Assembly: GCA_020724585.1 (NCBI GenBank)
Contig: DYGS01000001.1
Coordinates: 287,832-351,831 of the forward strand
Direction of reading: 5' to 3'
From: Candidatus Microgenomatus sp.
GTDB lineage: Bacteria; Patescibacteriota; Microgenomatia; UBA8517
Length of the DNA: 64,000 nt
Shown: positions 7,541-32,018 of the stretch, in pieces
Position numbering within the stretch: the first letter of the stretch is position 1
Layout: every line of letters begins with the position of its first letter
The notes under the pieces: generated by a model
Seen by the model: only the letters and a program-made list of their open reading frames with translations
The model's database searches: none
What the model was told of the DNA's origin: nothing
Position numbers and translations under genes: made by a program

Positions 7541-8405
7541 AAAGGTTTTCTTGTCTGTTGTTTTGGCAACAAGAAATGAGGAAGAAAATATATCCAGATG
7601 CCTTGAGTCAGTTAAGGATATTGCGAGTGAGATAATAATTTACGATGAATATTCAAAGGATGCCACAGTTTCTATTGCAAAAAAATATGGTGCAAAAGTT
7701 TTTCTCGAACCCCATCATGACATTTTTCATATAACCAAGCAAAAGGCTATAGATAAAGCGACTGGAGAATGGATATTGCAGCTAGATGCAGATGAAGTTG
7801 TAACACCAGAACTCTCTCGAGAGATTCTTAAAATTACAAATTCTAAATTACAAATTACAAATACTAACCTTTTATTTTTAAGACATCAACAACTTATAGA
7901 AGCACGAGATGGCAAGATTGGCAAGGATAGTGGAGAGGTTATTGCTTATTTTATACCTAGAAAAAACATGTTTTTAGGTAAACCCTTAATACATGCAGGC
8001 GTATATCCCGATGGTGTTATCAGATTATTTAAAAAAGGTTATGCCAAGTGGCCATGCAAATCTGTACATGAACAAATGGAGATAAAAGGTAGAGTAGGTT
8101 GGCTTAATAATGATTTACTGCACTTCGATTCACCAACATTAAAGCGTTACTTCATGAGATTAAATAGATATACAGACCTTCAAGCTCAAGAACTCAAAAC
8201 AAAAAAGGTTTCAAAGGGCCTTTTTCGGTTTTTACAATATACTATATACTATCCTCTATATACTTTTGCCAATTTATATATAAGACATAAAGGTTTTTTA
8301 GATGGTGTAAATGGTTTTCTTTGGAGTTTGTTTTCCTCTTGGCACTTCCCAATTGCTTATTTTAAATACTTAACAGATCCTTCCAGCAAGAAGGCGTATC
8401 CGTAG
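7530..8405 (+). CDS. Glycosyltransferase family 2 (GT-A fold)
   Basis: 'VVLATRNEEENI...LQLDADEVV' (DxD); typical GT2 N-terminal domain. Confidence 0.7.
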   Translation: MKNKKVFLSVVLATRNEEENISRCLESVKDIASEIIIYDEYSKDATVSIAKKYGAKVFLEPHHDIFHITKQKAIDKATGEWILQLDADEVVTPELSREILKITNSKLQITNTNLLFLRHQQLIEARDGKIGKDSGEVIAYFIPRKNMFLGKPLIHAGVYPDGVIRLFKKGYAKWPCKSVHEQMEIKGRVGWLNNDLLHFDSPTLKRYFMRLNRYTDLQAQELKTKKVSKGLFRFLQYTIYYPLYTFANLYIRHKGFLDGVNGFLWSLFSSWHFPIAYFKYLTDPSSKKAYP

Positions 8406-8415
8406 ACTAGTCTAC
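8397..8415. promoter_or_regulatory. Palindrome TATCCGTAGACTAGTCTAC (perfect 14-bp core GTAGACTAGTCTAC) at the convergent junction between the GT2 gene and abiEii; related to the repeats at 52847 and 53300
   Basis: Read directly from the sequence. Shares TATCCGT and ACTAGTCTAC with the 22-bp repeat flanking the TrpR-like gene. Overlaps the GT2 stop codon (TAG within gTAGac). Confidence 0.5.
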
Positions 8416-9063
8416 TGAACCAAATTTTGCAACTTTTTTAACCTCTTCTAGCAAAAACCTCTTAATAACTTCAGGGTTTATATCTTTATCAACATATTCG
8501 ATTCTATAGTTGTATATATCGTTCCAATAAATAAGTTGTTCTAAAAACAACTTTTTAGAAAAATCGTTACCAAATTTTTTTAAACAATTTATAATTAGTT
8601 TCTCCAAGGTTACATGATTTTCTTTTAGAATAAAATATAAATCAACATAGTCTCGCCATTTAGGTCTCCTTCCTTGTATAAAAGCTTTATTGCAAGCAAT
8701 ATCTTGTATACTCATGAGATTTATATCATTACTCTTTATTACTGGGAACATGCTTTTATAATCATCTAAAAAGAATGTAAGGTTTACACCATTTTGAGTA
8801 ACCACATCTAATTGATCTTGGGTATCAAGAGTTTTGTAAGAATTTGCTCCAAAAGTATCCTTAACTTTTTTCCAGATATACTTTGAAATTGGCTCATTTA
8901 CAAAAAAGTCAAAATCGTAAGATTTCCTATGCCCAATTTGAAGTGCGAGAGCTGTTCCTCCACCCAAAACTCCATATTGGCTGAAATCTTTAAGTTTTTT
9001 AAATACTTCTAGTCTTTTGTTGTCTAATGTATCTAGGAAAAGTTTTGACATATCTTTTTTCAT
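8407..9063 (-). CDS. abiEii: Nucleotidyltransferase AbiEii/AbiGii-family toxin (type IV TA / abortive infection)
   Basis: 'YGVLGGGTALALQIGHRKSYDFDFF' matches the AbiEii (DUF1814) GGTAL...R.S.D.D motif near the N-terminus; about 220 aa. Confidence 0.6.
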   Translation of the reverse strand: MKKDMSKLFLDTLDNKRLEVFKKLKDFSQYGVLGGGTALALQIGHRKSYDFDFFVNEPISKYIWKKVKDTFGANSYKTLDTQDQLDVVTQNGVNLTFFLDDYKSMFPVIKSNDINLMSIQDIACNKAFIQGRRPKWRDYVDLYFILKENHVTLEKLIINCLKKFGNDFSKKLFLEQLIYWNDIYNYRIEYVDKDINPEVIKRFLLEEVKKVAKFGSVD

Positions 9064-9322
9064 CTAATGGTTTGCTTATTTCAAGCAAAACATTTTTACT
9101 AAAATTATAGCCTTGGGGTGTGTAGTCTTTTTCAGGGTATTTTTCGAAAGATTCTCGTATTTCATTGATTGTGTAATTTTTGAAAAGCCAAACTAGATGA
9201 TCCCAGGTGCCATAAGCCAAAACTTGATGGATTACATAGGCTTTGTTTTTGATAAAATCAAAATTATTAATATCAACACTCCATAAAACACCTTGAAGGT
9301 TAGTAGGTATTTTTGATGTCAT
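8999..9322 (-). CDS. Small protein upstream of and overlapping abiEii; putative cognate antitoxin/partner (no recognised domain)
   Basis: 107-aa ORF that overlaps abiEii by 65 nt in another frame, i.e. an operonic pair. Shorter than the canonical AbiEi antitoxin. Confidence 0.4.
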   Translation of the reverse strand: MTSKIPTNLQGVLWSVDINNFDFIKNKAYVIHQVLAYGTWDHLVWLFKNYTINEIRESFEKYPEKDYTPQGYNFSKNVLLEISKPLDEKRYVKTFPRYIRQQKTRSI

Positions 9323-9366: not shown

Positions 9367-10095
9367 ATGAATTTAAAAAATAAAACTGCAGTTATAATAG
9401 GAGCAACGGGGGGAATTGGCAGTGAGGTCGCAAAGTCTTTGGATAAAGAAGGCGCTGATTTAATACTTATATCCAAGACTTTAGATAAATTAAGTAACCT
9501 TAATAATCTTTTGGGTAAAAAACATGAAACTCATGCTTTAGATTTGACAAATCAGAAAAAAGTTGAAGAGTATGCCAAAAGTTTCTCTAAAAAAATTGAC
9601 CTTTTTGTAAATTGTGCTGGCATTGGCGTTTATAAACAGATCGAGGAAATTTCGCTTGACGAATGGAATGACACTTTTAATATTGGATTAACCTCAACAT
9701 TTTTGATTATTAGAGAAATAATTAAAAATAAGTTGTATGCAGAGAATGCATTGTTTGTAAATATTGGCTCCGGGATGGGTGTTATCCCATCTGCGGGTAG
9801 GAGCCTATATTGTGCATCAAAATTCGCACTGCGCGGCTTTGCTTTATCCCTGGCAGAGGAATTTAAAAGAGTGGGCAACCCAAAATTTTGTTTGATAACT
9901 TTAGGCAGTACTTTGACGGAATTTGGACCCATGACTTTGGAGGAAAAAAAGAAAGATATGGAATCAGGCAAGGCCTATTTTACTCCGGAATGGGTAGGAA
10001 ATAAGTTGATGGAAATAATTAAAGACGATAATCGGGAAGTTGAATATGTACTATATCCTAGCGACTATGGTTTTGGTGATAGGAATACCCCCTGA
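9367..10095 (+). CDS. Short-chain dehydrogenase/reductase (SDR)
   Basis: 'VIIGATGGIGSEVA' Rossmann motif and 'YCASKFAL' catalytic YxxxK. Confidence 0.75.
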   Translation: MNLKNKTAVIIGATGGIGSEVAKSLDKEGADLILISKTLDKLSNLNNLLGKKHETHALDLTNQKKVEEYAKSFSKKIDLFVNCAGIGVYKQIEEISLDEWNDTFNIGLTSTFLIIREIIKNKLYAENALFVNIGSGMGVIPSAGRSLYCASKFALRGFALSLAEEFKRVGNPKFCLITLGSTLTEFGPMTLEEKKKDMESGKAYFTPEWVGNKLMEIIKDDNREVEYVLYPSDYGFGDRNTP

Positions 10096-10128
10096 AACCC
10101 AAGTAATCTGATATAATTCACTCTGCAG

Positions 10129-11670
10129 ATGAAAATAGTCCAAATATTTATCTTTCTAATATTAATTGCAATTGGGTTTGCTGATTCTGTCTTTTTAACA
10201 TACGAACACTACGCATTAACTAATATTGGTTGTCCTGTTAGTCCGTGGATAAATTGTTTAGCTGTAACTACTTCCAAGTATTCTGAAATATTTGGAATAC
10301 CACTGGCCTTATTTGGGGTTATTTACTATCTTTTAATGGGCATTTTTGTTTATTTTGGTAGAACTAGTAAAATGTTTAGACACTTTTTTATTATAACCTC
10401 AACCTTTGGAGCTTTATTTTCGGTTTATTTAATTTTTGTTCAAGCAGTTCTGCTTAAAGTCTTTTGTGCTTATTGTTTGCTTTCTGCTGCAACATCATTT
10501 TTGATTTTTGGTTTCTCATTGATATTTTTTGAAAAAGAATGGAAAACTGTAGTTCTTGATACTTTTGGTTATGCATATACTTTAGTTTTAAGACCTATCT
10601 TTTGGAAGATTGATGCTAAAACTGTACATGAAGGAATGACATCTTTTGGTGAAGTTTTAGGGAGAAACGATTTAATTAAAAAATTATTTAGTTTTATCTT
10701 TGTTAAAAAACACAAAAATTTAAAGTCCACATATCATGGCATAAAATTTGATAATCCAGTAGGTCTTGCTGCAGGTTTTGACTACAACGCACAAATAACA
10801 CAAATATCAAGACATATTGATTTTGGTTTTCAAACAGTTGGTACAATAACAAATATTGAATATGCAGGCAATCCTGCACCACAACTAGGTAGACTTCCAA
10901 AGTCTAAATCACTACTTGTTAATAAAGGCTACAAAAACAAAGGTTCACTTGTTATTTCAGATAAATTATCTAAATTCAAGAAATTTGATTTACCACTTGG
11001 TATCTCAATTGGTCGCTCAAATAATTCCACCTTAGATACTTTGGAATCTTCCATAGAAGATATTGTTAAATCGTTTAAAATGTTTGAGAAAGCCAATGCC
11101 AAAAATAGTTATTATGAACTAAATATTAGTTGCCCAAATATTATAAATGCTGTTCATGTCAGTTTTTATGAACCTAAGAATTTAGAAAAATTACTTTCTA
11201 GGGTGGATAGATTAAGAATCAAAAAACCAATTTTTGTAAAGATGCCAATTGACAAAAGTGATAGGGAGTTTAAAAAGATGCTTGATGTAATTGTTAAACA
11301 TAAAATTAAAGGTGTAATTATCGGAAACCTACAGACAAATAAAGAACACAAGACGCTAGTTAAATCAGAAGTTAGAAAGTTTAAGATGGGTAATTTCTCA
11401 GGCAAACCAACATTTGAAGATAGCAATAGACTCATAAAACTTGCCTACAAGTCTTATAAAGACAGACTAACCATTATTGGTTGTGGTGGGGTATTTAACA
11501 GTGATGATGCTTGGATCAAGTTTACAAATGGTGCAAGTTTAATTCAACTTATTACAGGTATGATTTTCGAAGGACCACAGCTAATTGCACAGATAAATAG
11601 AGATCTGTCAGAAAGACTAACTAAAAAAGGATATAAGAGTATTAAGGAAATAGTGGGAACTGCGGTATAA
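10129..11670 (+). CDS. pyrD: Fusion protein: N-terminal VKOR (vitamin K epoxide reductase-like) membrane domain plus C-terminal class-2 dihydroorotate dehydrogenase (PyrD)
   Basis: N-terminal 4–5 TM helices with the loop cysteine pair 'GCPVSPWINC' and the TM CxxC 'CAYCL' (VKOR signature). C-terminus has 'FDNPVGLAAGFDYNAQ...FGFQTVGTIT' and 'IIGCGGVFNSDDAWIKFTNGASLIQL', matching PyrD motifs. Confidence 0.65.
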   Translation: MKIVQIFIFLILIAIGFADSVFLTYEHYALTNIGCPVSPWINCLAVTTSKYSEIFGIPLALFGVIYYLLMGIFVYFGRTSKMFRHFFIITSTFGALFSVYLIFVQAVLLKVFCAYCLLSAATSFLIFGFSLIFFEKEWKTVVLDTFGYAYTLVLRPIFWKIDAKTVHEGMTSFGEVLGRNDLIKKLFSFIFVKKHKNLKSTYHGIKFDNPVGLAAGFDYNAQITQISRHIDFGFQTVGTITNIEYAGNPAPQLGRLPKSKSLLVNKGYKNKGSLVISDKLSKFKKFDLPLGISIGRSNNSTLDTLESSIEDIVKSFKMFEKANAKNSYYELNISCPNIINAVHVSFYEPKNLEKLLSRVDRLRIKKPIFVKMPIDKSDREFKKMLDVIVKHKIKGVIIGNLQTNKEHKTLVKSEVRKFKMGNFSGKPTFEDSNRLIKLAYKSYKDRLTIIGCGGVFNSDDAWIKFTNGASLIQLITGMIFEGPQLIAQINRDLSERLTKKGYKSIKEIVGTAV

Positions 11671-11677
11671 TTAAGTT

Positions 11678-12085
11678 GTGAATTATTATCAAACAAAGTC
11701 TAAGTTGATATCTGGAACAAACTACAAAGAGGTGATGAAGAAGGCTGAACGGTCATTTAACAAAATTGAGAAAAAAACCAAGAGACAGCCCTATCTTAGA
11801 TCCGCTTATTTTTTAAAGCGAAAAGTATTTTTTAACATTTTTTGGAAACACCTTTTTGATAAGAAGCATGCGTTTAGAATGGAACGATTACGATTTTTTG
11901 ATGCGTGTTTAGAGCTAATTCAAAAATCTAGAAACCATCCGACAACCTCTGAAAATCCTAACAACAAAGGCGAGGTGCTTCACAGGTTTTATGGATTAAC
12001 TAAAGAAAAATGTAAGTTCATAATTCAAATAAAGGAAATTAAGAGAAATGATAAATTATATCTTATGTCGATATTTCCAAGTTAA
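11678..12085 (+). CDS. Hypothetical basic protein (start uncertain: GTG at 11678 or ATG at 11735)
   Basis: ORF only. AAGAGG sits just before the in-frame ATG at 11735. No recognised domain. Confidence 0.35.
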   Translation: MNYYQTKSKLISGTNYKEVMKKAERSFNKIEKKTKRQPYLRSAYFLKRKVFFNIFWKHLFDKKHAFRMERLRFFDACLELIQKSRNHPTTSENPNNKGEVLHRFYGLTKEKCKFIIQIKEIKRNDKLYLMSIFPS

Positions 12086-28980: not shown

Positions 28981-30261
28981 ATGCAAAATATCATCGCAAG
29001 AGGCAAATCTATTATTCTTTCTGCAACGGCCAAAGATACTTATATTTTATTTTTGGGCAATTTAAATTCGGCGTTTCTGGGATTTCTGTTTACTTTTTTT
29101 GTTGCTAGGAATTTAGGTCGTGACGAATTTGGTATTTTTTCTGCTGCTCTAAACCTGGTGGTCATATTAACATCTCTTTCTGATCTTGGGATAACTTCGG
29201 CTCTTGTTAATTTCATTGCTAAAGCTGATTCAGAGAACGATGAGTCAACATCTTTAAAATACCAAAAGGCGGGTGTGATTATTAAGTTTGGAGTCACGAT
29301 TTTTCTTTCAGCTCTTGTAATTCTTTTTGCCCCACTCATATCAGATAAACTTCTAGCAACAAGCGATTATATGGTTGCTGTCTGGGTATCTATTATTTCA
29401 TTCGCTCTTTTTGTTCCTATGTATTTTTCTTATGTTTTGCAGGCAAAAAAGAAATTTTTTCAGTCGATGGTTGTTGATAACATTTATTATTTATTTAGGC
29501 TTTTAGGTTTACTTATTTTAATTTATTACGGCAATTTAACTCTTTTTGGCTCATTTTCAACAGCTATTTATGGGTTTATGGCAAGTCTTATTTTTAGTTT
29601 TTATTTTTTAGGTTTTAAATTTTTAGGACAGAAAGTTCCCGGCGGAATCTATTTTAATTTAATTAAATTTTCCGGTTGGATTGGGGTAAATAGAATAATC
29701 TCAGCCATTTCAGGCAGACTTGATATACAAATGTTGGCTGTACTAACAACAGCCTCAACGACCGCTTTATATTCAATACCCGCAAGACTTGCCTCGTTTA
29801 TAGTTATATTAACTTCAAGTTTTTCTTCTGTTTTAGCACCAAGGTTTGCAAGCTTTGGAGACAAAACTCAAGAAAAAAAATATTTAGTAAAATCCACTTT
29901 GGCATTAATACCGATTATTATTGTTACTGTAATTTGGGTCATCTTAGCAAAGCCGTTTATGGCAATTGTATTTCCTAATTATTTGGATTCAGTACCAGTA
30001 TTTCAGGCTTTAACGCTTTCAATGATTCCGTTTATTTTAACAGCACCATCTGTTGCCGCAATTATATATGCTATGGGGAAAAATGTTTATATTGGGTTAT
30101 TTAGTTTTTTTCAGTTGGCCGCAATATTTTTGCTCAACAGTTATTTCATCCCTAAATATGGTGCAATTGGGCCAACTATAACTTATGCTATAACAAATGC
30201 AATACTTGCACTTTATACCTGGGTCATTGTGATTAAGTATTATTGGTTTTCAAAAAAATAA
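28981..30261 (+). CDS. wzx: Oligosaccharide flippase (Wzx/MOP superfamily, polysaccharide biosynthesis protein)
   Basis: About 12 TM helices; N-terminus 'SAFLGFLFTFFVARNLGRDEFGIFSAALNLV' typical of Wzx. Confidence 0.65.
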   Translation: MQNIIARGKSIILSATAKDTYILFLGNLNSAFLGFLFTFFVARNLGRDEFGIFSAALNLVVILTSLSDLGITSALVNFIAKADSENDESTSLKYQKAGVIIKFGVTIFLSALVILFAPLISDKLLATSDYMVAVWVSIISFALFVPMYFSYVLQAKKKFFQSMVVDNIYYLFRLLGLLILIYYGNLTLFGSFSTAIYGFMASLIFSFYFLGFKFLGQKVPGGIYFNLIKFSGWIGVNRIISAISGRLDIQMLAVLTTASTTALYSIPARLASFIVILTSSFSSVLAPRFASFGDKTQEKKYLVKSTLALIPIIIVTVIWVILAKPFMAIVFPNYLDSVPVFQALTLSMIPFILTAPSVAAIIYAMGKNVYIGLFSFFQLAAIFLLNSYFIPKYGAIGPTITYAITNAILALYTWVIVIKYYWFSKK

Positions 30262-32018
30262 TTCTTAAGCCATAGTTCCAACATTAATATATTCCATTTT
30301 TTTCTATTGTCACTAAAGTCAATATTTTCCAAGTTTATATATCTATTGATCCTAGAATTTTTGTTAATTTTACTTTTGAAATATTTTGCTAAATCTCCTT
30401 TAAACCAATCTTCGAGCGATATTGTAAACCCCATTTTTTCTCTATATAAATTTTCCCTAGGTACAATTCTTTCCAATGCCTTTTTAAATATGTATTTTGA
30501 TTCACCATCTTTTATTTTTAAGTCAAATGGTATTTTGTTGGCCAGTTCAATCATGTTTTGGTCTAAGATTGGTGATCTTGCTTCAAGTGAGTAGTGCATC
30601 GAGGCGATATCCATTTTGGTTAAAAGAAGGTCAGGTAAAAAGTACTGTTGATCAAATTTTAAGCCAGCATCTTTTAAATCCGTGCCTTCAAATTTCTTAA
30701 ATACTTTTTTCTCAAGAGCATAATCATTGGTTTCAAAAATCCTATTATATGAGGCAAATTTTTGATAGATGGGCTTTTTTGATTTTTCTATAAAATTATC
30801 GATTTTTATAACGCCTGTTTTAAATGGAAATTTATTTATAACATTAATTAAAAAGTTATAGTCAACATCCCTTCTAAGTCTTAAGTATCTATTAGGATAT
30901 CCCGCAAACAATTCATCTCCACCATCGCCATTTAATACAACTTTGACATGTTTAGCTGCTTCGCGGCATACCATAAATGAAACAAGACCGCTATTATCAG
31001 AAAATGGTTCTTCGTAAGCTGCTGCAATTTCTTCTAAATTTGTAAAATTGTTAGGTTTTGCGAGTATCTCAGTATGATCAGTTTTATATCTTTTAACTAT
31101 TAGATTGGCATATTTTTCTTCACTCCACCTTTTATTTTCATACTTAATAGTAAATGTTTTAATTTTAGATCTAGAGTTTAAGGCCATCATTGCAACAACT
31201 GCACTGCTATCTACTCCACCTGAAAGAAAAGCGCCAAGAGGTACATCTGAAATCATTCTTAATTTGGTAGATTCTTCCAAAGTTTCGAGTATTTTTTGAG
31301 ACCACTGCTTTTCACTTAAATCTAATTTTTCTTTGAAATTAACTTCCCAGTACTTTTTTTTAACAAACTCTTTCCTTTTGATATTAATTTTAATAAAATG
31401 GCCTGGTTCGAGTTTTTTGATGTTTTTAAAACCAGTTAAAGAAGCTGGAACATAGCCATACAATAAATATTTTTGAATGGCAATTAAGTCCGGCTCTTTT
31501 TTAATTTCTCTTTGAGTTAAGATTGCCTTAAGTTCTGATGCAAATATAAAGACATTACTATCAAAATAATATTTCAGAGGCTTTTTACCTATTCTGTCTC
31601 GAGCAAGAAATATGGTTTGGTCGTGATTATCATATATTGCAAATGCAAACATGCCGCGAAGATATTTGAGACAGCCCTCTTTATATTTTGAATAAAGCGC
31701 GAGTATTACTTCAGTATCGGTTTTAGATTTAAATTTGTAACCCTCAATTAAAAGTGAATTTCTTAGTTCTTGAAAATTATATATTTCCCCATTAAAGATT
31801 ATTATGTACCTATTTAAATAGGACATCGGTTGATGACCCTTTTTTGAAAGATCTATAATTGAAAGCCTATTATGTCCAAATCCAACATTTCTCTCTTCAT
31901 TTATATAATAACCAGTATCATCTGGCCCACGATGGTTAATTTTTAAGGTCATTAAACTTAGTTGATGCCTAGTAACTTCTCTTTTATCAAAATAAACCTT
32001 GCCCGATATCCCACACAT
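30240..32018 (-). CDS. asnB: Asparagine synthetase B-type glutamine amidotransferase (AsnB/WbpS-like)
   Basis: N-terminal 'MCGISG' Ntn Cys and the 'SGGVDSS' PP-loop. Its 3' end overlaps wzx convergently by 22 nt. Confidence 0.8.
   Translation of the reverse strand: MCGISGKVYFDKREVTRHQLSLMTLKINHRGPDDTGYYINEERNVGFGHNRLSIIDLSKKGHQPMSYLNRYIIIFNGEIYNFQELRNSLLIEGYKFKSKTDTEVILALYSKYKEGCLKYLRGMFAFAIYDNHDQTIFLARDRIGKKPLKYYFDSNVFIFASELKAILTQREIKKEPDLIAIQKYLLYGYVPASLTGFKNIKKLEPGHFIKINIKRKEFVKKKYWEVNFKEKLDLSEKQWSQKILETLEESTKLRMISDVPLGAFLSGGVDSSAVVAMMALNSRSKIKTFTIKYENKRWSEEKYANLIVKRYKTDHTEILAKPNNFTNLEEIAAAYEEPFSDNSGLVSFMVCREAAKHVKVVLNGDGGDELFAGYPNRYLRLRRDVDYNFLINVINKFPFKTGVIKIDNFIEKSKKPIYQKFASYNRIFETNDYALEKKVFKKFEGTDLKDAGLKFDQQYFLPDLLLTKMDIASMHYSLEARSPILDQNMIELANKIPFDLKIKDGESKYIFKKALERIVPRENLYREKMGFTISLEDWFKGDLAKYFKSKINKNSRINRYINLENIDFSDNRKKWNILMLELWLKNYFFENQ

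What the first reader, a model, noticed from the sequence alone, without database searches (positions are those of the whole stretch)
10129..11670. VKOR membrane domain fused to class-2 dihydroorotate dehydrogenase
Residues 1–135 have the VKOR hallmarks: loop Cys pair 'GCPVSPWINC', active-site 'CAYCL' in a TM helix, and 4–5 TM helices. The remaining 380 aa are a clear quinone-type DHODH (PyrD motifs 'GLAAGFD', 'IIGCGGVFNSDDAWIKFTNGASLIQL'). Class-2 DHODHs normally carry only a short amphipathic N-terminal quinone-docking segment. Replacing it with a complete quinone-reducing/oxidising VKOR module implies a direct intramolecular link between pyrimidine biosynthesis and a quinone/thiol-disulfide redox relay. 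That would be notable in an organism of this type, which probably lacks a respiratory chain. I am not aware of this architecture being described.
Basis: partly seen in the sequence, partly recalled or inferred. Interest (0 to 1): 0.55.

Follow-up and report, generated by a model that had tools for sequence, protein, structure and literature searches.

The report
Conserved VKOR–dihydroorotate dehydrogenase fusion enzyme
A candidate-phyla-radiation bacterium encodes one membrane protein joining a disulfide-forming, quinone-reducing VKOR domain to a complete but unusual (cysteine-type) quinone-class dihydroorotate dehydrogenase; the pairing recurs in many species that are not known to respire, so it may show how they dispose of electrons.

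Summary
Window 10129-11670 (+) is one uninterrupted 513-aa ORF with VKOR (PF07884, res 8-130) and DHO_dh (PF01180, res 198-497), both far above cut-off.

It is not an assembly artefact:
- The 120 best database homologs (47-68% identical) all have both domains.
- 54 of the best 80 species-level genome loci are fused (Woese-, Roizman-, Gottesman-, Pace-, Cerribacteria).

The interpretation needs three corrections:
1. VKOR does not replace the class-2 quinone-docking segment. That helical domain (res 135-191) is retained, and VKOR is added in front through a length-invariant junction.
2. VKOR has 4 TM helices. Its cysteines face outside and DHODH lies inside, so the two quinone sites are at opposite leaflets. 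Both families normally reduce quinone, so a "direct relay" is not implied.
3. The DHODH is atypical: Cys replaces the catalytic Ser, Tyr replaces a conserved Lys, and one substrate loop is shorter.

New evidence for a real functional partnership: five independent contigs carry the same DHODH subtype and a stand-alone VKOR as an abutting or overlapping DHODH→VKOR operon.

Best reading (about 0.42): both enzymes share one, probably scavenged, quinone. I found no paper describing the pairing. It is a new variant of known kinds. Interest 0.6.

The parts
10129..11670 (+). Single ORF, 513 aa: VKOR-DHODH fusion protein (the stop codon is included in the coordinates)
10150..10518 (+). VKOR domain (res 8-130). 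Four TM helices: TM1 res 3-29, TM2 59-76, TM3 81-109, TM4 114-133, plus a short loop helix at 43-47.
10231..10257 (+). Loop cysteine pair C35...C43, on the extracytoplasmic loop between TM1 and TM2. The conserved Ser49 follows.
   Evidence: C35 and C43 are invariant in 118 homologs; S49 is conserved in >=90%. Charge counts follow the positive-inside rule.
10465..10476 (+). Active-site CxxC (C113-A-Y-C116) at the outer end of TM4
   Evidence: Invariant in 118 homologs. Aligned onto the CMYC of Synechococcus VKOR.
10531..10701 (+). Retained class-2 DHODH N-terminal helical (quinone-docking) domain: helices 135-158, 163-179 and 181-191, with invariant Y150 and H167 in the motif (L/I)DAExVH
   Evidence: The spacing from C116 to H167 is 52 residues in 117 of 118 homologs.
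10720..11619 (+). DHODH FMN (beta/alpha)8 barrel (res 198-497)
11131..11133 (+). Cys335 at the catalytic-base position (N-I-S-C-P-N), where class-2 enzymes have Ser
   Evidence: 120 of 120 homologs have Cys. It aligns to the Ser of M. tuberculosis 'NVSSPN'.
10783..10785 (+). Tyr219, replacing the conserved Lys of 'GLAAGFDK'
   Evidence: Invariant. Canonical relatives have Lys.
10921..10929 (+). N265-K266-G267: a substrate-loop motif one residue shorter than the canonical N-R-M-G
9367..10095 (+). Upstream short-chain dehydrogenase gene on the same strand, with a 33-nt gap and no terminator. It may be co-transcribed and is a recurrent neighbour.

Best explanation
This is a real, conserved bifunctional inner-membrane enzyme of a Woesebacteria-like (Microgenomates, CPR) bacterium.

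Anatomy. The N-terminal 134 residues form a four-helix VKOR. Its loop cysteine pair and its CxxC face the outside, where VKORs take electrons from exported protein thiols and pass them to a membrane quinone. TM4 runs through a rigid, indel-free junction straight into a complete class-2-type DHODH on the cytoplasmic face. That DHODH has its own two-helix quinone-docking domain and an FMN barrel, which would oxidise dihydroorotate and pass the electrons via FMN to quinone.

Subfamily. The DHODH belongs to a CPR subfamily with Cys instead of Ser as catalytic base. In fungi this trait marks class-II DHODHs that work without respiration.

Most likely mechanism (inferred). The two activities run in parallel on one shared membrane quinone. 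The quinone is probably scavenged, because CPR genomes are reported to lack quinone synthesis. VKOR also gives DHODH a polytopic anchor, much as the single TM helix does for mitochondrial DHODH. Fusion or operon linkage keeps the two quinone-dependent enzymes identified here together.

What is shown: the architecture, the topology, intact catalytic residues in both halves, and a conserved partnership. What is inferred: the substrates, quinone use, and the direction of electron flow. What reoxidises the quinol is unknown.
For: Both domains are present and intact:
- Searches place both domains above curated cut-offs.
- C35, C43, C113, C116, C335, K371, N265, N332, N337 and N400 are invariant in 118 homologs of 47-67% identity.

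The fusion is widespread and independent of any one assembly:
- All 120 best homologs carry PF07884+PF01180.
- 54 of the 80 best species-level loci are fused.

The class-2 N-terminal domain is retained.

The geometry is rigid:
- The AF2 model has pLDDT 94.9 and pTM 0.91.
- The junction length is invariant.

Topology:
- There are 4 TM helices.
- K+R residues are enriched at the N-terminus, in the TM2-3 loop and after TM4.

The partnership exists beyond fusion:
- A DHODH->VKOR operon with abutting or overlapping stop/start occurs in 5 of 5 contexts examined.
- Those operons carry the same DHODH subtype.

Anchoring is a recurring theme. The same DHODH clade is also fused to PAP2, to single TM helices, or to VKOR plus 2 extra TM helices, and the TM count is even wherever VKOR is present.

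Background from papers:
- Cys-type class-II DHODHs work independently of respiration (PMC8520639).
- CPR lack respiratory chains and quinone synthesis (PMC7143001; PMC8407418).
- VKOR is common in CPR (PMC6744442).
Against: - Two quinone reducers gain no electron sink by being joined. Translationally coupled operons and a rigid fusion are more than co-use of a cofactor would seem to require.
- No quinone-synthesis gene, quinol oxidase, Trx/DsbA-like partner or other pyr gene was seen in the window or in 1.26 Mb of flanks.
- Whether these genomes make pyrimidines de novo, or contain quinone at all, could not be tested here.
- The active site is remodelled (Lys->Tyr219, shortened NKG loop, NTT->NLQ, Ser->Cys), so the substrate or acceptor may not be canonical.
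- About 23 of the 80 loci carry the same DHODH subtype with no VKOR within 8 kb, so the partnership is not obligatory.
Confidence: 0.42

Rival explanations
1. Serial relay, forward direction. Electrons flow from dihydroorotate to FMN to quinone at the inner leaflet. The quinol flips to the outer leaflet and is reoxidised by VKOR running backwards, which reduces extracytoplasmic disulfides through CxxC and the loop cysteines. VKOR would then be the missing quinol oxidase (the electron sink) for DHODH in a cell without a respiratory chain. It would also supply reducing power to the envelope.
For: - It explains why two enzymes are specifically coupled, both as a fusion and as an abutting or overlapping operon, with a rigid junction.
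- All four VKOR cysteines are invariant.
- CPR lack respiratory quinol oxidases.
- Overall the reaction is downhill: orotate/DHO is about -258 mV and DsbA-type disulfides about -120 mV (values from memory). DHOD-bound FMN is -242 to -330 mV (PMC8520639).
Against: - To my knowledge no VKOR or DsbB has been shown to work physiologically in reverse.
- The menaquinol-to-disulfide step is slightly uphill.
- CPR appear to need an oxidant for MdbA-type folding catalysts (PMC6744442), not a reductant.
- The two quinone sites lie at opposite leaflets, so quinone must flip.
- There is no biochemical evidence.
Confidence: 0.2
2. Serial relay, reverse direction. Exported protein thiols reduce VKOR, VKOR reduces quinone, and the quinol is reoxidised by the DHODH-like flavoprotein, which reduces a cytoplasmic acceptor (a fumarate-like enoate, or orotate). 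The DHODH-like partner would then be the terminal oxidase of disulfide-bond formation in an organism without an electron-transport chain.
For: - It would solve the open problem of how VKOR is recycled in CPR.
- A Cys base is what fumarate-reducing class-1A enzymes use.
- Fumarase mutations improved a Cys-type class-II DHOD in yeast (PMC8520639).
- The substrate pocket is remodelled.
Against: - Orotate (about -258 mV, from memory) is a very poor acceptor for quinol.
- Reducing DHODH-type FMN (-242 to -330 mV) with quinol is strongly uphill.
- The Asn residues that recognise the pyrimidine ring are all conserved.
Confidence: 0.1
3. The DHODH-like domain is not a dihydroorotate dehydrogenase at all. 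It would be a related FMN enzyme acting on another substrate, for example a dihydropyrimidine without the carboxylate.
For: - The Lys that contacts the orotate carboxylate and FMN in canonical enzymes (from memory) is an invariant Tyr here.
- The adjacent loop is one residue shorter, and NTT is replaced by NLQ.
- The NCBIfam equivalog score is only just above cut-off (268.4 against 267).
- No pyr genes were found in any flank.
- Some public records carry the label 'nonfunctional'.
Against: - TIGR01036 scores 216 against a cut-off of 200.
- Four ring-binding Asn residues, the FMN-binding Lys371 and the catalytic-base position are all conserved.
- New lysines K266 and K269 in the shortened loop could replace the lost Lys.
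Confidence: 0.15
4. VKOR serves only as a membrane anchor and has lost its own activity.
For: The same DHODH clade carries other N-terminal anchors, namely PAP2 and single TM helices. Mitochondrial DHODH has a TM anchor in the same position (established knowledge).
Against: All four cysteines are invariant and the loop Ser is conserved in >=90% of 118 homologs. In five contigs VKOR is a separate gene in an operon with DHODH, where it cannot act as a covalent anchor.
Confidence: 0.05
5. The fusion is an artefact: a misassembly, or a missed stop codon or frameshift.
For: Two of the 80 related loci do have the halves separated: L035 by a tRNA-Gly gene and L074 by a frameshift.
Against: - The reading frame is uninterrupted and only frame 1 is open across the junction, with equal GC and GC3 in both halves.
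- The identical protein occurs in several assemblies.
- 120 of the 120 best homologs and 54 of the 80 species-level loci are fused, with an invariant junction length.
Confidence: 0.01

Closest known systems
Bacterial class-2 (quinone-dependent) dihydroorotate dehydrogenase PyrD (E. coli, H. pylori 6b8s, M. tuberculosis 8ofw)
   Different: The catalytic Ser is Cys. The Lys of GLAAGFDK is Tyr. The NRMG loop is shortened to NKG. NTT is replaced by NLQ. A four-TM VKOR precedes the enzyme, where the bacterial relatives have a free amphipathic N-terminus.
Synechococcus VKOR-thioredoxin fusion (3kp9, 4nv2, 4nv5) and other bacterial VKORs
   Different: There is no fifth TM helix and no periplasmic thioredoxin-like domain. 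The fused partner here is cytoplasmic. It is another quinone reducer, not VKOR's electron donor.
Mitochondrial class-2 DHODH
   Same: Same order of parts: TM anchor, then the alpha1/alpha2 quinone domain, then the FMN barrel.
   Different: Here the anchor is TM4 of a catalytically intact four-TM enzyme, not a single helix. The catalytic domain faces the cytoplasm.
Anaerobically active fungal class-II DHODs with a Cys base (SjUra9, DbUra9, ArUra9; PMC8520639)
   Same: Class-II sequence type with Cys at the catalytic-base position, in organisms or conditions without respiration.
   Different: Those are eukaryotic, and ArUra9 has lost its N-terminal domain and uses free flavins. The CPR enzymes keep the quinone domain and are tied to VKOR.
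DsbB/VKOR-quinone disulfide-formation pathway (the MdbA-VKOR system of Actinomyces, which has homologues in CPR; PMC6744442)
   Same: The VKOR half has every feature needed for this role.
   Different: In the known systems the quinol is recycled by a respiratory chain. Here no chain is expected, and the partner gene is DHODH, not MdbA/DsbA.

Membership tests
VKOR (PF07884) | Profile match above the curated cut-off | tested here: met
   91 bits against a gathering score of 27.5, res 8-130 matching model positions 2-133 of 134
VKOR (PF07884) | Four-TM helical bundle fold | tested here: met
VKOR (PF07884) | CxxC active site at the start of TM4, plus a loop cysteine pair and a conserved loop Ser/Thr | tested here: met
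   C113/C116 and C35/C43 are invariant and S49 is conserved in >=90% of 118 homologs. The CxxC aligns onto that of Synechococcus VKOR.
VKOR (PF07884) | Thiol-dependent quinone (or epoxide) reductase activity with a thioredoxin-like partner | not testable with these tools
   No partner gene was found in the window or in the flanks. This needs biochemistry.
Class-2 (quinone) DHODH | Family profile above the curated cut-off | tested here: met
   TIGR01036 scores 216 against 200. NF003652 scores 268.4 against 267, which is marginal. PF01180 scores 174.8 against 27.
Class-2 (quinone) DHODH | N-terminal two-helix domain that forms the quinone tunnel | tested here: met
Class-2 (quinone) DHODH | Serine as the catalytic base | tested here: not met
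   Cys335 in N-I-S-C-P-N is invariant in 120 of 120 homologs. It aligns to the Ser of M. tuberculosis DHODH.
Class-2 (quinone) DHODH | Canonical FMN- and orotate-contacting residues (the Lys of AAGFDK, the N-x-x-G loop, N-T-T) | tested here: not met
   These positions are Tyr219, a shortened N265-K-G loop and N400-L-Q, all invariant. The ring-binding Asn residues and Lys371 are conserved.
Class-2 (quinone) DHODH | Quinone as the electron acceptor, and a role in de novo pyrimidine synthesis | not testable with these tools
No pyr genes were found in 1.26 Mb of flanks.
Class-1 DHODH (1A/1B) | Cys base combined with a class-1 sequence type and no N-terminal membrane domain | tested here: not met
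VKOR-thioredoxin fusion (cyanobacterial/actinobacterial type) | A fifth TM helix and an extracytoplasmic thioredoxin-like domain | tested here: not met
   There are only 4 TM helices, and the C-terminal domain is a DHODH on the cytoplasmic side.

The most novel reading that the evidence does not exclude
The VKOR/DHODH pair, whether fused or in an operon, is a minimal two-enzyme trans-membrane redox loop. The two halves are coupled in series through one shared, possibly tightly held, quinone. Either dihydroorotate oxidation is discharged onto extracytoplasmic disulfides by a VKOR running in reverse, or thiol oxidation outside is discharged onto a cytoplasmic acceptor by the Cys-type DHODH-like flavoenzyme. 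Either version would give CPR bacteria, which lack a respiratory chain, the electron sink they otherwise appear to lack.
Probability: 0.3. Interest if true: 0.85.

Novelty: new variant of a known kind. Interest (0 to 1): 0.6.

Why it matters
Microgenomates and other CPR bacteria are reported to lack respiratory chains and quinone biosynthesis. Yet they keep two enzymes whose families depend on membrane quinone: VKOR, for disulfide bonds in pili and surface proteins, and a class-2-type DHODH, for pyrimidines. How either enzyme gets rid of its electrons in these organisms is an open question.

These two enzymes are specifically linked. At least 54 species-level genomes carry the rigid fusion, and five contigs carry the abutting or overlapping operon. 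That makes them a defined unit that can be tested experimentally.

The work also defines a large bacterial clade of class-2-like DHODHs with a Cys catalytic base and a rebuilt substrate corner. This parallels the rare fungal class-II enzymes that work anaerobically. That is relevant to DHODH classification, to automatic annotation (these proteins are currently named plain 'quinone-dependent DHODH' or 'nonfunctional'), and to metabolic reconstructions of CPR.

Tried and rejected
- Misassembly, missed stop or frameshift: rejected.
- 'VKOR replaces the quinone-docking segment': rejected, because the segment is present.
- Five TM helices or a periplasmic C-terminus: rejected. There are four TM helices and the charge distribution follows the positive-inside rule.
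- Class-1 DHODH membership, despite the Cys base: rejected.
- Conserved pyr, Trx/DsbA or quinone-biosynthesis neighbours: none found.
  - BLAST clustering of 1095 flanking ORFs gave only lineage synteny: NUDIX, a small TM protein, an aminotransferase, SDR and PNPOx.
That hit is an ornithine carbamoyltransferase in an arg cluster.
- Literature: six full-text searches pairing VKOR or vitamin K epoxide reductase with dihydroorotate, pyrD, fused or CPR/Patescibacteria, and DHODH with CPR, found no description of the pairing.
- The afdb50 fold library was unavailable, so precedents in UniProt/AFDB could not be listed.
- My first junction regex was faulty. I redid the measurement from alignment columns.
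- A rough NJ tree interleaves fused and stand-alone DHODHs. It is too crude to count fusion and fission events, so I draw no firm conclusion from it.
- Model coordinates are not returned by the tool, so I could not measure the distance or orientation between the CxxC and the FMN/quinone tunnel.
- Genome-wide questions could not be addressed, because only about 20-kb neighbourhoods are retrievable: other pyr genes, men/ubi genes, quinol oxidases, MdbA, a second VKOR.
Full report
**The observation.** Window 10129-11670 (+) is a single 513-aa ORF with an ATG start and a TAA stop.
- Pfam finds VKOR (PF07884) at residues 8-130 (E=9.4e-26, 91 bits against a cut-off of 27.5). It finds DHO_dh (PF01180) at residues 198-497 (E=3e-51, 174.8 bits against 27).
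- NCBIfam places the C-terminal part in the quinone-dependent DHODH equivalogs. TIGR01036 scores 216 against 200. NF003652 scores 268.4 against 267. The class-1 models are far below their cut-offs.
- Only frame 1 is open across the junction, and both halves have the same GC and GC3.

**Not an artefact, and not rare.**
- The identical protein is on record from NCBI, JGI and Logan assemblies, on contigs up to 744 kb.
- The 120 best hits in the 5.8-billion-protein collection are 47-68% identical, and all carry PF07884+PF01180. Source names include Candidatus Woesebacteria, Roizmanbacteria and Microgenomates. Some records are named 'dihydroorotate dehydrogenase (quinone)' and some 'DHODH 2, nonfunctional'.
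- A scan of one genome per GTDB species found at least 587 stretches encoding relatives. I classified the best 80 loci with HMMs built from my own alignment:
  - 54 are fused (Woese-, Roizman-, Gottesman-, Pace-, Cerribacteria and unclassified Patescibacteria).
  - 23 carry the same DHODH subtype alone, with no VKOR within 8 kb (mostly Levybacteria).
  - 3 have the two halves adjacent but separate.
- The window itself is a Woesebacteria-like Microgenomates sequence. Its best species-level match is 63% identical (L006), its GC is about 31%, and the whole 64 kb is a glycosyltransferase/PMT_2 island.

**Anatomy.** AlphaFold2, run with a 118-sequence alignment, gives pLDDT 94.9 and pTM 0.91.
- *VKOR half.*
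  - There are four TM helices (3-29, 59-76, 81-109, 114-133) and a short loop helix (43-47).
  - The sequence alignment puts CAYC on that enzyme's CMYC.
- *Junction and quinone-docking domain.*
  - TM4 continues almost directly into helices 135-158, 163-179 and 181-191.
  - These helices are the class-2 DHODH N-terminal quinone-docking domain. NCBIfam models align from model position 3-5.
  - Residues 150-175 align to the H. pylori enzyme from its residue 11, including the DAExxHE motif.
  - Stand-alone homologs begin exactly at this helix.
  - So VKOR was added in front of a complete class-2-type enzyme. It did not replace the docking segment.
- *Rigidity.* The segment from C116 to H167 is 52 residues long in 117 of 118 homologs, while other loops vary in length. 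That fits the high pTM.
- *Topology.* K+R residues are enriched at the N-terminus, in the TM2-TM3 loop and after TM4. With four TM helices, this puts both cysteine pairs outside and the DHODH in the cytoplasm. This is the accepted VKOR topology (established knowledge from the Synechococcus and human structures).
- *Consequence.* The VKOR quinone site, near the outer surface next to the CxxC, and the DHODH quinone tunnel, on the inner surface, sit at opposite leaflets.

**Both halves are under selection.** In 118 homologs the following are invariant: C35, C43, C113 and C116; in the DHODH half N265-K266-G267, N332, S334-C335-P336-N337, K371, N400 and G453-G454; and Y150 and H167 in the docking helices. 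S49 is conserved in at least 90%.

**An atypical DHODH.**
- The catalytic-base position holds Cys335 (N-I-S-C-P-N), where class-2 enzymes have Ser. This holds in 120 of 120 homologs, in all 26 non-fused loci, and in most representatives down to about 35% identity.
- Motif analysis of 149 cluster representatives shows nested clades:
  - canonical enzymes with Lys, Ser and an N-x-x-G loop;
  - an intermediate clade with Lys, Cys and the canonical loop;
  - an innermost clade with Tyr instead of the Lys of GLAAGFDK, Cys, and a shortened N-K-G-F-K-N loop. This clade holds every VKOR-linked enzyme and also has N-L-Q in place of N-T-T.
- From memory, that Lys and that loop contact FMN and the orotate carboxylate in canonical enzymes. 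The substrate corner therefore looks rebuilt. I could not resolve whether K266 and K269 compensate or whether the specificity has changed.
- A relevant precedent is Bouwknegt et al. 2021 (PMC8520639). The few fungal class-II DHODs with Cys at this position are the ones that support anaerobic, respiration-independent pyrimidine synthesis.

**A partnership beyond fusion.**
- In L066, a stand-alone DHODH of the innermost clade is followed, 4 nt after its stop codon, by a complete stand-alone VKOR gene of 137 aa with a loop Cys pair and a CNWC motif.
- All eight database relatives of that VKOR are stand-alone proteins.
- In all four contexts I could retrieve, which are 55-62% identical to it, the VKOR gene abuts or overlaps the 3' end of a 373-379-aa DHO_dh gene. 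Those DHODHs are the same subtype: FDY, NISCPN, VNKGFKN, GNLQ.
- In L035, VKOR and DHODH are separate genes with a tRNA-Gly gene between them.
- The same two enzymes are therefore linked in two gene orders and as separate or fused polypeptides. That is the classic signature of a functional relationship, and it argues against VKOR being a mere anchor.
- The same DHODH clade is also found behind a PAP2 domain, behind single TM helices, or behind VKOR plus two extra TM helices. Membrane anchoring is therefore part of the story.

**Context.**
- No pyr genes, Trx/DsbA-like partners, quinone-biosynthesis genes or quinol oxidases are present in the window, nor consistently near the 89 loci with a DHODH gene.
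- Recurrent minority neighbours are a PNPOx-like FMN protein (within 3 kb in 11 of 89 loci, across all three architectures) and an SDR (9 of 89 loci, including the gene 33 nt upstream in the window).
- Papers state that Microgenomates lack respiratory chains and complete nucleotide synthesis (PMC7143001). They report that CPR genomes lack quinone-biosynthesis genes even when they carry a quinol oxidase (PMC8407418). They also report that VKOR is common in CPR, often beside an MdbA-like oxidoreductase (PMC6744442).

**How it most likely works.**
- *Shown:* a rigid two-enzyme membrane protein with all catalytic residues of both halves intact, VKOR thiols outside, the DHODH inside, and a conserved partnership.
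- *Inferred:* both halves use a common membrane quinone.
- Both families normally reduce quinone, so three schemes remain.
  - *(M1) Parallel reducers* around one scarce, probably scavenged, quinone, with VKOR also acting as anchor. This is the most conservative reading (about 0.42). It leaves the quinol sink unexplained.
  - *(M2) Forward series:* DHO to FMN to quinone to VKOR cysteines to external disulfides, with VKOR running in reverse (about 0.2). It is downhill overall and would give DHODH a sink. A reverse-running VKOR has no precedent that I know of.
  - *(M3) Reverse series:* external thiols to VKOR to quinone to flavin to a cytoplasmic acceptor (about 0.1). This is attractive for oxidative folding but thermodynamically difficult with orotate as acceptor.
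- Cutting across all three is the possibility (about 0.15) that the remodelled DHODH-like domain has a non-canonical substrate.

**Comparison and novelty.** Each half belongs to a known family. The VKOR half passes every membership test I could run. The DHODH half has the class-2 fold, docking domain and profile scores, but fails the 'Ser base' criterion and lacks some canonical contact residues. It is best called a Cys-type class-2-like DHODH. VKOR fusions to thioredoxin-like domains are known. I found no paper that mentions a VKOR-DHODH fusion or a pyrD-VKOR operon, although the proteins sit in public databases under generic names. I rate it a new variant of known kinds, with interest 0.6. 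It is a widespread, well-defined and experimentally tractable unit, and it bears directly on how CPR bacteria without a respiratory chain run quinone-dependent chemistry.

Noticed in passing
window 8407-9322 (-): An AbiEii (PF08843) plus DUF6922 gene pair, which looks like a toxin-antitoxin module, sits between a glycosyltransferase gene and the SDR gene just upstream of the fusion.
   Followed up: no
window 1-64000: The whole window is a glycosylation and polysaccharide island (many GT2, GT4, PMT_2, Wzy and Polysacc_synt genes), with almost every gene on the + strand. GC skew is positive in 31 of 32 2-kb bins. The one negative bin (30001-32000) coincides with the minus-strand asparagine synthase gene at 30240-32018. 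PMC7143001 describes strand composition asymmetry in some Microgenomates.
   Followed up: partly
window 10109-10117: TGATATAAT, which looks like an extended -10 element, ends 11 nt before the ATG at 10129, with no obvious Shine-Dalgarno sequence. No terminator lies between the SDR stop codon (10095) and the fusion gene. The transcript could be leaderless or short-leadered, or the gene could be co-transcribed with the SDR.
   Followed up: no
L035 7875-9578; L074 7953-9412: In L035 (Woesebacteria GW2011_GWC1_42_9), VKOR and DHODH are separate genes with a tRNA-Gly(TCC) gene (8382-8456) exactly between them. In L074 the halves are in different frames and part of the docking helix is missing, so it is a pseudogene or a sequencing error.
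   Followed up: partly
P0154, P0134, P0219, P0132 (representative proteins): The same Cys-type DHODH clade occurs with other additions: an N-terminal PAP2 membrane phosphatase domain (P0154), a C-terminal cytidylyltransferase-like domain (P0134), an unannotated 360-aa C-terminal extension (P0219), and VKOR plus two extra TM helices (P0132).
   Followed up: partly
L002, L006, L007, L008, L015, L066, L069, L088, L091; window 9367-10095: A PNPOx-like FMN-binding protein lies within 3 kb of the DHODH/VKOR genes in 11 of 89 loci, across fused, operon and stand-alone types. An SDR lies within 3 kb in 9 of 89 loci (the window's own locus is counted through the SDR at 9367-10095, not through a PNPOx-like gene). 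A nitroreductase is also present in the L002 lineage. These could be additional redox partners.
   Followed up: partly
L089 7227-8910: A squalene/phytoene-synthase-family gene and a UbiA-family prenyltransferase lie 2-3 kb downstream of a DHODH->VKOR operon. This may be relevant to prenylquinone or other prenyl-lipid synthesis.
   Followed up: no
L013, L017-L019, L022-L024 and many other loci: Many third-party MAG records that carry this CPR-type gene are titled 'uncultured Gammaproteobacteria' or 'Pseudomonadales', although the gene is 45-52% identical to Roizman- and Woesebacteria proteins. This is probably placeholder or wrong taxonomy.
   Followed up: no
L055, L089 and the P0280 context: A Crp-family regulator (cNMP_binding plus HTH_Crp_2, with no Fnr-type cysteines in the one sequence I read) lies upstream of DHODH or of the DHODH->VKOR operon on the same strand. 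It is immediately upstream in L055 and the P0280 context; in L089 two genes lie between. BLAST clustering places this regulator family within 6 kb in 8 loci.
   Followed up: no
window 11678-12085 (+): A 135-aa ORF with a GTG start lies directly downstream of the fusion gene and has no Pfam hit. The JGI gene call there is only 68 aa.
   Followed up: no
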